Below are positions 52,040 through 60,123 of a stretch of 60,123 bases of DNA, in pieces. The translations under genes were made by a program, and so were the position numbers. Source of the stretch: an uncultured Gammaproteobacteria bacterium (GTDB lineage Bacteria > Patescibacteriota > Patescibacteriia > UBA11705); the NCBI GenBank assembly GCA_964592195.1, contig CAZQEI010000001.1, forward strand, positions 52,885-113,007, given 5' to 3'. How positions within the stretch are numbered: position 1 is the first letter of the stretch; each line of letters starts with the position of its first letter. The notes under the pieces were generated by a model that was not told the origin of the DNA, ran no database searches, and was given only the letters and a program-made list of their open reading frames with translations.

Positions 52040-52080
52040 GTCATGTCATACGACATGACTGGCATATCGAATGATATGCC
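52040..52080. repeat. tandem double hairpin (TGTC-N4-GACA + TATC-N4-GATA)
   Basis: GTCATGTC-ATAC-GACATGAC-T-GGCATATC-GAAT-GATATGCC, flanked by CCGT on both sides. Confidence 0.75.
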
Positions 52081-52137: not shown

Positions 52138-52398
52138 TTAATTTCGAGGAGCTGAAGGTCGCGCTTCAGAAACATTGATGTTGCGACCGTCGATGGTGTA
52201 GCCATTGAATTGGCTGATAGCATTTTGCGCTTCTTCGTCCGTTGACATTTCAACGAAGCCAAAGCCGCGGCTGCGGCCGGTTTCGCGATCTGTGATCACG
52301 GTCGCTGACACGACGTTACCTGCTTGCGAAAATAACGCTTGCAAGTCTTCGCTCGTAGTCTTGAAGGGCAAACTACCGATGAATAACTTTTTCGCCAT
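52138..52398 (-). CDS. RRM RNA-binding protein
   Basis: RNP2 LFIGSL, RNP1 RGFGFVEM. Confidence 0.95.
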   Translation of the reverse strand: MAKKLFIGSLPFKTTSEDLQALFSQAGNVVSATVITDRETGRSRGFGFVEMSTDEEAQNAISQFNGYTIDGRNINVSEARPSAPRN

Positions 52399-52547
52399 AC
52401 TTGGATGGTGTAATAATTATTGTTTCAACCGACTGGATAACTTCTTATCCTGCCGACCTATCCAATAATTGTAATCAACTTCCCGTCGACCTTATTGTCC
52501 ACCCAAATATAACATATAACAAAGACAATAATCAGGAACTTTTTAAC

Positions 52548-52668
52548 TGGTGCAATCAGAGGGACTCGAACCCCCAGCCTCCTTGATTCGCCATGTCTTA
52601 CGACATAACAAAAAGCCAAGAAGACTTTCCAGTTGCAAACCTGTCGATCGACAGGCAGCTATGACTGC
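52548..52668 (-). other. tRNA-Arg-derived copy 3 with two hairpin inserts
   Basis: Acceptor stem, T-arm and CCA retained; inserts at 52591-52612 and 52636-52656. Confidence 0.85.
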
Positions 52669-52676
52669 TTATTTAT

Positions 52677-52798
52677 TGGTGCAGCCAGAGGGACTCGAAC
52701 CCCCAACCCCTTGGTTCGCCGCGTCATTCGACACGGCTTGAAGCCAAGAAACTTTATCCAGTTGCTTGCCCTGTCGCATGACAGGGAGCTATGACTGC
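52677..52798 (-). other. tRNA-Arg-derived copy 2 with two hairpin inserts
   Basis: 3' half identical to the tRNA; 22-nt inserts at 52719-52740 and 52765-52786. Confidence 0.88.
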
Positions 52799-53058
52799 CT
52801 ATATTTAATTTGAACTAGCAAATCTCGTATTTGTTGTCTTAACAACCTTTTACCTTCAGTAGTTTTTAAAAATTTCTCCCTACGAACAGCATCAGATTTC
52901 AATCGATAAACTTCATAATGTATTAATTCTAGTGGTAACTTTCCCTTTGTTGAATCTACCTTACCAGTCTCATGTTGCTTCAATCGTTTCGTTAAATCTT
53001 CAGTTTCTCCTGTATACAACGTATTATTATTTAGATGTAGGATATATACATAATGCAT
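52789..53058 (-). CDS. small GIY-YIG nuclease-family protein (89 aa)
   Basis: YVYIL...LYTG.T..L.KRL.QH, YE......A.RREK.LK; ATG 53058 lies 6 nt after the tRNA CCA. Confidence 0.92.
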   Translation of the reverse strand: MHYVYILHLNNNTLYTGETEDLTKRLKQHETGKVDSTKGKLPLELIHYEVYRLKSDAVRREKFLKTTEGKRLLRQQIRDLLVQIKYRQS

Positions 53059-53064
53059 ATTAAC

Positions 53065-53141
53065 TGGTGCAGCCAGAGGGACTCGAACCCCCAACCCCTT
53101 GGTTCGAAGCCAAGTACTCTATCCAGTTGAGCTATGACTGC
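53065..53141 (-). tRNA. tRNA-Arg(TCG)
   Basis: GCAGTCA/TGGCTGC acceptor, CTTGG-CTTCGAA-CCAAG anticodon arm, TTCGAGT T-loop, encoded CCA, 77 nt. Confidence 0.96.
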
Positions 53142-53306
53142 CTATACTCTAAATAACAAACATTTTTATTTAATCGTATTCTACCATATTAATTTGGTTT
53201 ATGCAATCCAGGAGCTCAAAAATTCTAAATCCTAAATTCTAAGCACTAAAGATGGTTTTTACCGATTGCTTTGTTGCTTTTTTGATTTCTTAATTTTTTC
53301 CAAAAA

Positions 53307-54005
53307 CTACACTCCCCAACCCTGCTTTTCAAGGGCTAATCGAGCGGCCGCTTCTTGGGCTTCTTGTTTACTGGAACCAGTGCCGGTAGCTAATAATTCT
53401 TTGTTAACGTAAACACCCACTTCAAAAGTCTTCGCATGATCAGGACCTTCTTCGCTTAAAACTTTGTAAACAGGTGTAGAACCAGAATGCTCCTGCGCCT
53501 GTTCTTGAAAATGTGTTTTGGGATCCATGTACAATTTCTTGTCCAAAATTTCTTTTAATTCTGGTAATAAGAAAGTATGCACAAATTCTTTTGCTTCTTT
53601 ATAGCCTTGATCTAAATAAATAGCTCCAGTCAAAGACTCAAAAGTATTGGATAAAATATAATTACGCGCTTTTCCAGTATCTTTCTGTTCTCCTTTGCTT
53701 AACAATAAAAATTCTTCCGCTCCAATCATTTTGGCAATCTTGGCCAACATAGTGCCATTTACCAAACTAGCGCGCCAATTGGTCAACTCGCCTTCCGGAT
53801 TTTTGAAGGTTGAATATAAATGTTCGGTTACAATTAATTCCAAAACTGCGTCACCTAAAAATTCTAAACGCTCATTGTGTTCCAAGGGAAAATCACGATG
53901 CTCATTTAAATACGAACGGTGAACAAACGCTTGTTGCAGCAATTCTTTGTTTTTAAATTTCACTTTGATGGCTTTTTCAAAAGCCGTAAATTTATTTTCT
54001 GACAT
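53307..54005 (-). CDS. rnc: ribonuclease III
   Basis: NERLEFLGDAVL signature, C-terminal dsRBD. Confidence 0.97.
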   Translation of the reverse strand: MSENKFTAFEKAIKVKFKNKELLQQAFVHRSYLNEHRDFPLEHNERLEFLGDAVLELIVTEHLYSTFKNPEGELTNWRASLVNGTMLAKIAKMIGAEEFLLLSKGEQKDTGKARNYILSNTFESLTGAIYLDQGYKEAKEFVHTFLLPELKEILDKKLYMDPKTHFQEQAQEHSGSTPVYKVLSEEGPDHAKTFEVGVYVNKELLATGTGSSKQEAQEAAARLALEKQGWGV

Positions 54006-60018: not shown

Positions 60019-60123
60019 TGTGGTCACCAGTTACTTCTGACCCTCCCTTTAGGGAGGATAAAAAGCTCTATCCCCCACATAAATGTGTGGTCACCAGTTA
60101 CTTCTGACCCTCCCTTTAGGGAG
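60019..60123 (+). repeat. direct repeat of at least 38 bp with 67-bp period, truncated at window end
   Basis: TGTGGTCACCAGTTACTTCTGACCCTCCCTTTAGGGAG at 60019-60056 and 60086-60123. Confidence 0.85.

What the first reader, a model, noticed from the sequence alone, without database searches (positions are those of the whole stretch)
52548..53141. tRNA-Arg + GIY-YIG nuclease + two tRNA copies with programmed-looking hairpin inserts
Seen on the minus strand: intact tRNA-Arg(TCG), then 6 nt, then an 89-aa GIY-YIG ORF whose last codons and TAG stop lie inside the 5' end of a second tRNA copy (122 nt), then a third copy (121 nt). Both copies carry a 21-22-nt insert at the same two sites, the D-stem (GCT^CAA) and the anticodon (CTT^CGAA). 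The four inserts differ in sequence but all fold as hairpins with a TGTC-N4-GAC core: CCTGTC-ATGC-GACAGG, CGTGTC-GAAT-GACGCG, CCTGTC-GATC-GACAGG, TATGTC-GTAA-GACATG. Copy 3 keeps acceptor and anticodon-stem pairing through wobble-type changes, and both copies keep the T-arm and CCA. Random pseudogene decay would not give this. Inference: a nuclease-associated tRNA-like RNA array, such as a decoy, guide or antitoxin RNA processed by RNase P/CCA pathways, or the footprint of a GIY-YIG-driven micro-insertion system that targets tRNA genes.
Basis: partly seen in the sequence, partly recalled or inferred. Interest (0 to 1): 0.88.

Follow-up and report, generated by a model that had tools for sequence, protein, structure and literature searches.

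The report
Selfish nuclease cassette in tRNA duplication
A tiny nuclease gene and its matching DNA hairpins sit inside a duplicated arginine tRNA gene, one example of a compact, probably mobile element that recurs beside tRNA genes in ultra-small (CPR) bacteria and that I did not find described.

Summary
On the minus strand lie tRNA-Arg(TCG), 6 nt, an 89-aa GIY-YIG ORF whose TAG stop is T8-A9-G10 of a second tRNA copy, then a third copy. Each copy carries 21-22-nt hairpin inserts at tRNA positions 12/13 and 34/35.

It is not a one-off. This single-domain GIY-YIG family was found in 209 of 401 sampled genomes of the phylum. It lies next to a co-oriented tRNA in 28 of 42 genome loci and 60 of 67 metagenome loci. 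The usual layout is one intact tRNA, the ORF, and a broken copy of the same tRNA. The broken copy carries a conserved hairpin pair (CG-core-CG-core-CG; loops ATNC and GNAT) at a CpG of its T-loop or anticodon.

The NusB-RNase III-tRNA-Arg neighbourhood is kept in 11 of 11 relatives, but only 2 carry the ORF. That presence/absence pattern fits an insertion.

Best reading (0.68): a selfish nuclease-plus-hairpin cassette lodged in a tRNA duplication. It resembles Ssn/NTS and phage SegB. Copies 2 and 3 are rearranged, tandemly duplicated broken copies.

A role as RNA is not excluded. Copy 3, inserts included, lies in metatranscriptome contigs that run into the downstream gene. Splicing is unsupported.

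The parts
53065..53141 (-). Intact tRNA-Arg(TCG). It is the complete copy of the duplicated target gene, and the only CGN-reading tRNA that ARAGORN found in this genome.
   Evidence: ARAGORN; Rfam tRNA 66.4 bits.
52789..53058 (-). Single-domain GIY-YIG nuclease ORF, 89 aa. The ATG lies 6 nt after the tRNA's CCA. The TAG stop is positions 8-10 of copy 2.
   Evidence: ORF list. Pfam PF01541, E 1.6e-14. Closest solved structures are UPF0213 proteins, 1zg2 at E 2e-8. Conserved Y..Y, Y.G, R, H and RRE..K motifs across 27 homologues.
52677..52798 (-). Copy 2: a full-length tRNA-Arg copy broken by two hairpin inserts. Its first 12 nt and last 42 nt are identical to the intact tRNA.
   Evidence: Alignment A1. 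No full-length Rfam tRNA match. Predicted fold -57.1 kcal/mol, z -4.45.
52765..52786 (-). Copy 2, D-arm insert: hairpin core CCCTGTC-ATGC-GACAGGG plus the tail CAAG.
   Evidence: The same 18-nt core lies beside the closest genome homologue (L045).
52719..52740 (-). Copy 2, anticodon insert: head CAAG plus hairpin core CCGTGTC-GAAT-GACGCGG, followed by the anticodon CG.
   Evidence: The same 18-nt core lies directly upstream of the ORF in L045.
52548..52668 (-). Copy 3: a tandem, more diverged copy of copy 2 with the same two inserts. It lies in RNA-library contigs that continue into the downstream RRM gene.
   Evidence: Alignment A1. Rfam 25.6 bits, below the 29-bit threshold. Fold -54.6 kcal/mol, z -5.41. 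RNA contigs 52366-52650, 52510-52660 and 52499-52649 show 0 differences and no joints.
52636..52656 (-). Copy 3, D-arm insert: GCCTGTC-GATC-GACAGG plus the tail TTTG.
52591..52612 (-). Copy 3, anticodon insert: head TTTG plus TTATGTC-GTAA-GACATGG. The stem is kept through one double change and G.T wobbles on the tRNA-sense strand.
52040..52080 (.). Free-standing 41-nt hairpin pair of the same family (loops ATAC and GAAT), just 3' of the RRM gene.
   Evidence: Hairpin scans. It is one of the 14 pattern matches in the genome.

Best explanation
This is a compact selfish cassette typical of CPR (Patescibacteria) bacteria. It consists of a single-domain GIY-YIG nuclease gene plus its own pair of CG-bounded palindromic hairpins, lodged in a tRNA gene so that one complete tRNA survives. 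Here the surviving tRNA is tRNA-Arg(TCG), upstream of the ORF. The redundant copy carries the hairpins. In this window the redundant copy has been rearranged, so that the two hairpins are separated by tRNA positions 13-34, and then duplicated in tandem to give copies 2 and 3.

Shown here: the anatomy of the locus; the family-wide link between the ORF, a tRNA, a broken copy of that tRNA and the hairpins; the CpG-in-loop position of the hairpins; and the presence/absence of the ORF at a conserved neighbourhood.

Inferred by analogy with SsnA (which cuts single-stranded DNA next to a hairpin repeat) and with phage SegB (which has a T-loop target, leaves 2-nt 3' overhangs and drives recombination-dependent duplication of tRNA segments):
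- The nuclease recognises its hairpins and/or cuts at the loop CpG of tRNA genes.
- The break is repaired by recombination that uses the tRNA sequence itself as a portable homology arm. This copies the cassette in and creates the duplication.
- The CG on each side of each hairpin core is the 2-nt footprint of that cut.
- The ORF is expressed as part of the tRNA precursor transcript.

On this reading copies 2 and 3 are by-products rather than working tRNAs, because the D-arm and the anticodon loop are destroyed.
For: 1. The protein family is widespread: 209 of 401 sampled genomes of the phylum have a match at E<=1e-8, often several per genome.

2. It is linked to tRNAs. Among 42 loci from other genomes, 21 have a co-oriented tRNA starting -25 to +80 nt from the end of the ORF match, 7 have a tRNA at most 170 nt upstream only, and 14 have none. 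Among 67 distinct metagenome loci (80 fetched, 13 duplicates dropped), the figures are 43, 17 and 7. tRNAs make up about 0.3% of this genome (53 genes in 1.39 Mb).

3. A broken copy of the same tRNA lies on the other side of the ORF. This holds for 16 of 21 and 37 of 43 of the tRNA-downstream loci, and for 1 of 7 and 9 of 17 of the tRNA-upstream loci (9-mer test).

4. The hairpins travel with the ORF. An ATNC/GNAT core lies within 100 nt upstream of the ORF in 41 of 43 tRNA-downstream metagenome loci. It lies within 330 nt downstream in 16 of 17 loci with the window's orientation. Ten of the 11 closest genome homologues (L045-L055) carry this hairpin type, while more distant homologues carry other palindromes. 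L045 has both 18-nt cores of copy 2 letter for letter.

5. The insertion site is consistent. All 12 non-G000 pairs and all 12 G000 pairs listed are flanked C|...|G, giving CG-core-CG-core-CG at the T-loop TTCGA or at a CG-containing anticodon. Stem positions 2, 4, 5 and 6 covary across 47 distinct units.

6. Presence/absence fits an insertion. NusB-RNase III-tRNA-Arg(TCG) is kept in 11 of 11 relatives, and the ORF is present in 2 of them. In one of these (G007) the ORF is followed by a broken tRNA-Arg copy with the unsplit hairpin pair in the anticodon loop.

7. The genome holds a second such module at tRNA-Asn (G000:C15).

8. The hairpin-pair pattern was found in 17 of 401 genomes. Fourteen of the 16 other than G000 also have the GIY-YIG family.

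9. Known analogues exist. SegB: abstract and sections 9-10 of PMC13096335. Ssn: PMC11893778 sections 6, 7 and 10 plus passages.
Against: - No nuclease activity, cut site or movement has been shown. Every mechanistic step is inferred by analogy.
- The protein's best solved-structure matches are UPF0213 proteins. Membership of the Ssn clade (cd10448) could not be tested.
- The intact tRNA keeps the presumed target CpG, so how the host copy escapes cutting is unexplained.
- The window's layout is atypical. The TAGCT-site hairpin pattern was found in 0 of the 109 homologue loci, so an extra, unexplained rearrangement is needed. The 4-nt direct repeats around the middle segment (CAAG twice in copy 2, TTTG twice in copy 3) have no explanation.
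- Hairpin pairing is kept between copies 2 and 3 although loops and tails diverged, with G.T wobbles only on the sense strand. Copy 3 is also in RNA-library contigs. Both point towards some use as RNA.
- In G000, 22 of 53 tRNAs have partial self-copies, and most of those I read carry other hairpins and no ORF. The hairpins may therefore spread without this nuclease.
Confidence: 0.68

Rival explanations
1. Copies 2 and 3 are functional tRNA-shaped RNAs. They could be a structured leader for the downstream RRM-protein mRNA, a decoy or sponge for a tRNA-binding factor, or a regulator of the nuclease. On this reading they were co-opted from cassette debris and are kept by selection at the RNA level.
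For: Both copies fold far better than shuffled sequence (z -4.45 and -5.41). They keep the acceptor stem, T-arm and CCA, and turn the D and anticodon arms into long helices. Between copies 2 and 3 all 5 changed hairpin stem pairs stay paired. One is a double change, and the G.T wobbles are valid only on the sense strand. Loops and tails changed heavily over the same interval. Three metatranscriptome runs (one study, two samples) hold contigs identical to 52200-52660. These cover copy 3 with both inserts and continue into the RRM gene.
Against: The TAGCT-site hairpin of this layout was found in 0 of 109 homologue loci. The usual broken copy is only a 5' or 3' fragment that cannot form an acceptor stem. 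The exon identity of copy 2 can be explained by gene conversion from the intact tRNA 350 nt away. The tRNA-part stems of copy 3 differ from the intact tRNA by only 3 substitutions. RNA contigs show presence only. They give no ends, strand or processing, and all come from one study.
Confidence: 0.17
2. The hairpins are ordinary REP-like palindromes moved by another enzyme, for example one of the genome's two Y1 (RAYT / IS200-like) transposases. On this reading they merely accumulate in dispensable pseudo-tRNA copies, and the GIY-YIG gene is an unrelated neighbour.
For: G000 has 14 pattern matches for the hairpin pair (12 distinct free-standing pairs listed), none of them next to a GIY-YIG ORF. 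It also has two Y1_Tnp genes. Many tRNAs have hairpin-bearing partial copies without any ORF.
Against: The two Y1_Tnp genes are flanked by different repeats: CCCTCCC-TTTA-GGGAGGG and CAAGGGGT...ACCCCTTG. In other genomes the pair occurs 1-3 times, and several of the listed matches lie directly beside the ORF. The hairpin type follows the ORF lineage. Fourteen of 16 pair-bearing genomes have the GIY-YIG family.
Confidence: 0.1
3. Copies 2 and 3 are intron-bearing tRNA-Arg genes whose hairpin inserts are spliced out to give extra working tRNA.
For: If both inserts were removed exactly, the anticodon loop CTTCGAA, the T-arm and the CCA would be restored.
Against: The predicted folds show no bulge-helix-bulge at either junction. 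No splicing endonuclease (PF01974) and no RtcB ligase (PF01139) were found in the 96%-complete genome. RNA contigs keep both inserts of copy 3 and show no joints. After excision the D-stem would still lack the 13-22 pair, and there would be an extra base before the anticodon stem. Related loci hold only fragments of tRNAs.
Confidence: 0.02

Closest known systems
Ssn nucleases with NTS/SRM hairpin repeats (Neisseria SsnA). PMC11893778: abstract, sections 6, 7 and 10, and passages read.
   Same: Both have a single-domain GIY-YIG protein of about 90 aa (SsnA 94 aa, this ORF 89 aa). In both, the gene sits next to its own hairpin-forming repeats, the repeats are also scattered in the genome, and the hairpin sequence varies with the protein lineage.
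   Different: The hairpin sequence differs: CG-bounded cores with ATNC and GNAT loops here, against the NTS consensus there. The cassette here is nested in a tRNA gene duplication with the hairpins at a loop CpG, whereas the word 'tRNA' occurs 0 times in that paper's main text. Membership of the cd10448 clade was not testable, and the best solved-structure matches are UPF0213 proteins. Cutting of single-stranded DNA is untested.
Phage T4/T6 SegB, a free-standing GIY-YIG homing endonuclease in tRNA gene clusters. PMC2330249: abstract. PMC13096335: abstract and sections 9-10.
   Same: Both are GIY-YIG nuclease genes lying among tRNA genes. SegB's target includes the conserved T-loop motif and its cuts leave 2-nt 3' ends. 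It drives recombination-dependent tandem amplification of a segment holding its own gene and a tRNA. It is associated with many different tRNA isotypes.
   Different: SegB is a phage protein that depends on its C-terminal part (a C-terminally truncated SegB lost its toxicity). Here the protein is the catalytic domain alone and sits in a cellular genome. SegB has no hairpin repeats and no broken tRNA copy with palindromes at the cut site.
REP / REPIN elements and RAYT transposases, including GTAG- and CGTC-tagged palindromes. PMC3733652: passages read.
   Same: These are short GC-rich palindromes with 8-bp stems and 4-nt loops. They occur as head-to-head dimers, show compensatory stem variation, are scattered between genes and are occasionally found inside genes.
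   Different: The pairs here are not flanked by a RAYT gene, and the two Y1_Tnp genes have other repeats. They are tied to a GIY-YIG gene and to tRNA loops. I saw no GTAG or CGTC unpaired tag of the published form.
Integrative elements that insert in tRNA genes and restore the gene (attL/attR with a partial tRNA copy). This comparison is recalled from general knowledge; no paper was read.
   Same: One complete tRNA and one partial copy flank the inserted DNA. The crossover point lies in the anticodon loop or the T-loop.
   Different: There is no integrase and the whole cargo is about 0.3 kb. The junction carries a palindrome pair, and the partial copy can be the 5' part as well as the 3' part.

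Membership tests
GIY-YIG nuclease superfamily (Pfam PF01541) | Match to the domain model above the curated cut-off | tested here: met
   54.4 bits against a 22.6-bit cut-off, E 1.6e-14, residues 1-70.
GIY-YIG nuclease superfamily (Pfam PF01541) | Conserved catalytic-core residues (two Tyr motifs, Arg, Glu) | tested here: met
   The alignment of 27 homologues keeps YvY, Y.G, R, H and RRE. Which residues are catalytic is recalled, not tested.
Ssn family (cd10448) of site-specific ssDNA nucleases | Single-domain GIY-YIG protein of about 94 aa | tested here: met
   89 aa with one Pfam domain and no other family hit.
Ssn family (cd10448) of site-specific ssDNA nucleases | Falls in the cd10448 clade | not testable with these tools
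   No CDD search and no SsnA sequence were available. The best solved relatives are UPF0213 proteins. Identity is 33-34% to two other small GIY-YIG proteins of G000 that look Ssn-like to me; that label is recalled.
Ssn family (cd10448) of site-specific ssDNA nucleases | Gene flanked by hairpin repeats fitting the NTS/SRM consensus | tested here: not met
   Hairpin repeats do flank the gene, but their sequence (CG-CCCTGTC-ATNC-GACAGGG-CG type) does not fit the printed NTS consensus. The generic gene-plus-hairpin association is met.
Ssn family (cd10448) of site-specific ssDNA nucleases | Cuts single-stranded DNA only, next to the hairpin | not testable with these tools
   This needs a biochemical assay.
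SegB-type free-standing homing endonuclease | GIY-YIG domain plus a separate DNA-binding part | tested here: not met
   The protein has 89 aa, of which 70 belong to the catalytic domain.
SegB-type free-standing homing endonuclease | Gene associated with tRNA genes | tested here: met
   28 of 42 genome loci and 60 of 67 metagenome loci.
SegB-type free-standing homing endonuclease | Filled and empty alleles at a conserved site | tested here: met
   The ORF is present in 2 of 11 relatives that share NusB-RNase III-tRNA-Arg. These relatives belong to different genera, so this is not a within-population test.
SegB-type free-standing homing endonuclease | Cleaves the tRNA T-loop motif leaving 2-nt 3' ends | not testable with these tools
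   Only the CG-core-CG-core-CG junctions at TTCGA are seen. They are compatible with such a cut but do not demonstrate it.
REP/RAYT (REPIN) system | The repeats flank the RAYT gene | tested here: not met
   Both Y1_Tnp genes of G000 are flanked by other palindromes. Part of one flank is masked with N.
tRNA (copies 2 and 3) | Detected as a tRNA by ARAGORN, or by Rfam RF00005 at its threshold | tested here: not met
   ARAGORN finds only the intact gene. Copy 3 scores 25.6 bits and the copy 2 region 18 bits, against a 29-bit threshold.
Archaeal-type spliced tRNA intron | Bulge-helix-bulge at the junctions, plus a splicing endonuclease and a ligase in the genome | tested here: not met
   The folds show continuous helices. 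PF01974 and PF01139 were not found in the 96%-complete genome. RNA contigs show no joints.

The most novel reading that the evidence does not exclude
The single-domain GIY-YIG gene and its CG-bounded hairpin pair form a previously undescribed kind of mobile element. It uses the CpG in the exposed loops of tRNA genes (T-loop TTCGA, or CG-containing anticodons) as its integration point. It carries the missing tRNA part with it, so the host gene is rebuilt, and it uses the tRNA itself as a species-independent homology arm. Hairpin-only derivatives of such elements have colonised about 40% of the tRNA loci of this genome. At least one broken copy (copy 3) has been taken over as a structured, tRNA-shaped leader RNA of a neighbouring gene.
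Probability: 0.3. Interest if true: 0.85.

Novelty: new variant of a known kind. Interest (0 to 1): 0.66.

Why it matters
It would give a concrete, testable example of how a minimal nuclease of about 90 aa plus a 40-nt palindrome pair can persist and spread in the most reduced bacterial genomes. The element would do so by using the most conserved sequences available, tRNA genes, as both landing site and homology arm.

It links two recent lines of work: Ssn hairpin-guided nucleases that cut single-stranded DNA, and SegB-driven amplification of tRNA segments.

It explains why CPR genomes carry many tRNA fragments that confuse tRNA annotation.

It also points to a set of small nucleases with simple, readable DNA targets (a hairpin plus a CpG) that could be assayed directly.

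Tried and rejected
- **Rfam.** At a permissive threshold, 52300-53400 gave only tRNA and chance-level hits. Four other tRNA-linked elements of the genome likewise gave nothing.
- **Protein naming.** NCBIfam gave one sub-threshold hit and PHROGs gave none.
- **Promoter and terminator scan.** 3 promoter-like sites against 2.8 in shuffles, and 1 terminator-like site against 1.0. This is uninformative.
- **Exact-pattern scan of genome contigs.** It returned 6 stretches. Two (an Anaerotruncus record and a Bacillota MAG) have no tRNA nearby and I take them as chance matches.
- **RAYT link.** Rejected.
- **Archaeal-type splicing.** Rejected.
- **RNA runs over the ORF and copy 2.** No RNA contig covers 52684-53035. 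Contigs cannot show absence, so I draw no conclusion about expression there. RNA hits on the intact tRNA carry 2-4 mismatches and come from other organisms' tRNAs. The X2 joint 52580/53116 is likewise a foreign tRNA.
- **A 4-nt target duplication as the origin of the CAAG/CAAG and TTTG/TTTG repeats.** I considered this and a template-switch origin for the segment between the two hairpins. Neither could be tested.
- **Direction of the hairpin pair relative to the ORF.** This is meaningless, because the pair reads the same on both strands.
- **Prior description in the literature.** Searches returned no paper describing GIY-YIG genes nested in tRNA duplications with palindromes in CPR bacteria. 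Supplementary data of PMC11893778 and PMC13096335 were not opened. They may list CPR homologues or tRNA neighbours.
Full report
**1. What is in the window**

On the minus strand the order of parts is as follows.
- tRNA-Arg(TCG) at 53141-53065 (ARAGORN; Rfam 66.4 bits).
- Six bases.
- An ORF from the ATG at 53058 to the TAG at 52791-52789. It has 89 aa and matches Pfam GIY-YIG at E 1.6e-14.
- A 122-nt tRNA copy at 52798-52677.
- Eight bases.
- A 121-nt tRNA copy at 52668-52548.

The ORF's stop codon is T8-A9-G10 of copy 2. Each copy carries two inserts. One lies after tRNA position 12/13 and is 22 nt in copy 2 and 21 nt in copy 3. The other lies after position 34 and is 22 nt in both. All four inserts hold a TGTC-N4-GAC hairpin. 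The motif TGTCNNNNGACA occurs 6 times in the window against 0.66 expected. A second DNA run reproduces the arrangement without differences.

**2. The copies are not tRNAs**

ARAGORN ignores both copies. Rfam scores are 25.6 and 18 bits against a 29-bit threshold. If the inserts were removed, the anticodon loop, T-arm and CCA would be intact. The D-stem would still lack one pair, and an extra base would sit before the anticodon stem.

As RNA, both copies fold into a tRNA-like outline in which the D and anticodon arms become long helices (-57.1 and -54.6 kcal/mol; z -4.45 and -5.41).

I found no support for splicing. There is no bulge-helix-bulge. The 96%-complete genome shows no splicing endonuclease and no RtcB. 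RNA contigs keep both inserts of copy 3.

**3. The hairpins belong to a family**

The genome is G000: 1.39 Mb, 38.7% GC, 53 tRNAs. It holds 14 matches to a hairpin-pair pattern. Each pair consists of two 20-nt units. Each unit has an 8-bp stem and a 4-nt loop, ATNC in one unit and GNAT in the other, and the pair reads the same on both strands. One pair lies in the window at 52040-52080.

Across 47 distinct units, stem positions 2, 4, 5 and 6 show several Watson-Crick pair types, while the loop-closing TC/GA is invariant. That set was selected for pairing. The fair control is that 47 distinct units have at least 7 of 8 stem pairs, out of 209 core matches counted on both strands. By my own arithmetic, chance would give about 3%.

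**4. The nuclease family is tied to tRNA genes**

The 89-aa protein has relatives in 209 of 401 sampled genomes of its phylum, often in several copies. Record titles of matching loci name Candidatus Falkowbacteria and Candidatus Saccharimonas MAGs, so the phylum is CPR / Patescibacteria.

I examined 42 loci from other genomes: the 29 best hits plus 13 further copies from multi-copy genomes.
- 21 have a co-oriented tRNA starting -25 to +80 nt from the end of the ORF match.
- 7 have a tRNA only upstream, within 170 nt.
- 14 have none.

The stop codon lies from 59 nt before to 20 nt inside the tRNA. In two loci it is the tRNA's T8-A9-G10, as in the window.

A scan of metagenome contigs gave 80 loci, of which 67 are distinct after dropping 13 with identical ORF DNA.
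- 43 have the tRNA just downstream.
- 17 have it just upstream. The gap is -1 to 23 nt in 16 of them and 90 nt in one. This is the window's orientation.
- 7 have none, and 3 of those lie at contig ends.

tRNA genes cover about 0.3% of this genome, so the association is far beyond chance.

**5. The recurrent layout**

In the tRNA-downstream type, the region upstream of the ORF holds a partial copy of the same tRNA. In the loci I read in full the copy begins at the tRNA's first base. This holds in 16 of 21 and 37 of 43 loci by a 9-mer test. The copy is interrupted by the hairpin pair, continues for 4-11 more tRNA bases, and is followed 10-25 nt later by the ATG.

In the tRNA-upstream type, the ORF is followed by GGTT-CG-core-CG-core-CG-AATCC and then the tRNA's 3' end.

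The pair sits at the CpG of the T-loop TTCGA, or at the CG of a CG-containing anticodon (Arg-TCG, Arg-GCG, Ser-CGA). All 12 non-G000 pairs and all 12 G000 pairs listed have C|...|G flanks.

The ATNC/GNAT hairpin type accompanies the closest homologues: 10 of 11 genome loci (L045-L055), and 41 of 43 plus 16 of 17 metagenome loci. More distant homologues carry other GC-rich palindrome pairs, at least some of which are again CG-bounded. L045, the closest genome homologue at 67% identity, has both 18-nt hairpin cores of copy 2 letter for letter. There too the cores are separated by host sequence.

**6. Evidence that it is an insertion**

NusB-RNase III-tRNA-Arg(TCG) is conserved in 11 of 11 relatives examined. 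Only two have a GIY-YIG ORF after the tRNA. In G007 the ORF is followed by a broken tRNA-Arg copy whose 3' half is identical to the intact gene and whose anticodon loop holds the unsplit hairpin pair.

G000 itself has a second module at tRNA-Asn. It consists of a partial copy (positions 1-38) with two 30-nt double hairpins, then the ORF, then the intact tRNA.

Twenty-two of the 53 tRNAs of G000 have partial self-copies within 800 nt, where chance would give about one. In those I read, the copies are interrupted by palindromes in the D-loop, T-loop or anticodon region. Most have no ORF.

**7. The window's version is a derived one**

Here the intact tRNA is upstream of the ORF. The broken copy is full-length, and its two hairpins are separated by tRNA positions 13-34. 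That middle segment is flanked by 4-nt direct repeats: CAAG twice in copy 2 and TTTG twice in copy 3.

Copies 2 and 3 share derived changes in the middle segment, so they arose by tandem duplication of a copy that was already rearranged. A pattern scan found the TAGCT-site (D-arm) hairpin in none of the 109 homologue loci. D-arm insertions of the same hairpin do occur without an ORF. Examples are arrays upstream of tRNA-Val and tRNA-Phe in G007, upstream of tRNA-Arg(TCT) in a Saccharimonas MAG, and upstream of tRNA-Leu(GAG) in G000.

**8. RNA evidence**

Three metatranscriptome runs (one study, two samples) hold contigs identical to 52200-52660. This stretch covers the RRM-protein gene, its leader and nearly all of copy 3 with both inserts. 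The contigs end at 52649-52660, close to the 5' end of copy 3 at 52668. A DNA run continues beyond that point.

This is a weak hint that a transcript begins at or near the start of copy 3 and runs into the RRM gene. It says nothing about copy 2 or the ORF.

**9. Known relatives of the idea**

- **Ssn.** SsnA of Neisseria is a 94-aa single-domain GIY-YIG enzyme that binds a hairpin repeat (NTS) as single-stranded DNA and cuts beside it. The gene is typically flanked by its repeats, and different homologues have different hairpin specificities (PMC11893778). That paper does not mention tRNA.
- **SegB.** Phage SegB is a GIY-YIG homing endonuclease in tRNA clusters. Its site contains the T-loop motif and it leaves 2-nt 3' ends (PMC2330249, abstract). 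Its nuclease activity drives recombination-dependent tandem amplification of a segment holding segB and a tRNA (PMC13096335, sections 9-10).
- **REP/RAYT.** This system gives the general model for hairpin dimers (PMC3733652, passages). The two Y1 transposase genes of G000 are flanked by other repeats.

**10. Most likely mechanism (inferred)**

The nuclease recognises its hairpins and/or the loop CpG of tRNA genes, probably when the DNA is single-stranded and the tRNA gene is folded. The break is repaired by recombination in which the tRNA sequence on both sides of the cassette serves as the homology arm. This copies the cassette into the same tRNA gene of another genome and produces one complete and one broken copy.

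The CG on each side of each core fits a 2-nt staggered cut at a self-complementary CpG. The ORF has no promoter of its own that I could see. It lies within a few bases of a tRNA, so it is probably transcribed with the tRNA and released by tRNA processing.

Several things remain unexplained: how the intact copy escapes cutting, how the two hairpins became separated here, and what the 4-nt repeats mean.

**11. Verdict**

It is one member of a widespread and, as far as my searches show, undescribed class of tRNA-nested GIY-YIG/hairpin cassettes in CPR bacteria (literature searches). I file it as a new variant of known kinds (Ssn-like nuclease plus repeats; SegB-like tRNA targeting). My confidence is 0.68 that the copies are by-products of a selfish cassette and 0.17 that they now act as RNA.

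Supplementary files of the papers were not opened.

Noticed in passing
G000 contigs outside the window, e.g. L090 (G000:C2:93150-93420), L089 (C2:82800-83080), C14:11676-11960: 22 of 53 tRNAs of this genome have partial self-copies within 800 nt. In those I read, the copies are interrupted by GC-rich hairpins or hairpin pairs in the D-loop, T-loop or anticodon region. The hairpin families include TCCGCC-AAA-GGCGGA, CCCC-AAA-GGGG and others. Most have no nuclease ORF nearby.
   Followed up: partly
L088 (G000:C15:8518-9010): A second GIY-YIG module: a partial tRNA-Asn copy (positions 1-38) with two 30-nt double hairpins, then an 81-aa GIY-YIG ORF (36% identical to the window's), then the intact tRNA-Asn. 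The sequence before the partial copy repeats the ORF's 3' end, which suggests a tandem array. The stretch further upstream is masked with N.
   Followed up: partly
L086 (G000:C1:131150-131520) and L087 (G000:C4:40200-40560); also downstream of tRNA-Glu(CTC) on C8: An element of roughly 130-190 nt follows several tRNAs. It starts with an inverted T-arm sequence and ends with a copy of the tRNA's last 18-20 nt plus a copy of the terminator. It has no Rfam match.
   Followed up: partly
Directly after the CCA of many G000 tRNAs (view): A hairpin starts right after the CCA and is followed by the constant motif ATGGCACGCCAT, which imitates a tRNA 3' end. It occurs after tRNAs of different identity.
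   Followed up: no
window 60042-60057 and beyond the window end (G000:C1:112926-113610): CCCTCCC-TTTA-GGGAGGG hairpins, each preceded by GTGGTCACCAGTTAC, are repeated upstream of a Y1 (IS200/RAYT-like) transposase gene that lies just past the window. Part of the region is masked with N. This looks like a separate REP/RAYT-type system.
   Followed up: partly
G000:C2:3700-3950 (upstream of the GIY-YIG ORF at C2:3472-3693): Three copies of a GTCATCCCC-AGCGTAG-GCGGGGAT type hairpin lie upstream of another small GIY-YIG gene. In outline they resemble the published NTS/SRM repeats of Ssn nucleases.
   Followed up: no
Flanks of the free-standing hairpin pairs in G000: Free-standing pairs are embedded in short arrays of an 8-mer such as CTACGAAT or CCACGAAT, and appear to split one 8-mer at C|G. 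This site resembles the T-loop TTCGAAT.
   Followed up: partly
window 53065-53141 and the G000 tRNA list: tRNA-Arg(TCG) is the only CGN-decoding tRNA that ARAGORN finds in this 96%-complete genome; there is no ACG or CCG anticodon. A same-family relative has a tRNA-Arg(CCG) about 200 nt downstream of its tRNA-Arg(TCG) (L006).
   Followed up: no
L013, L014, L015 (G007): Tandem arrays of 2-4 units, each unit being the first 12-15 nt of a tRNA plus a 22-nt hairpin insert plus a few D-loop bases. They lie directly upstream of intact tRNA-Val(TAC), tRNA-Phe(GAA) and other tRNA-like starts, with no ORF between them.
   Followed up: partly
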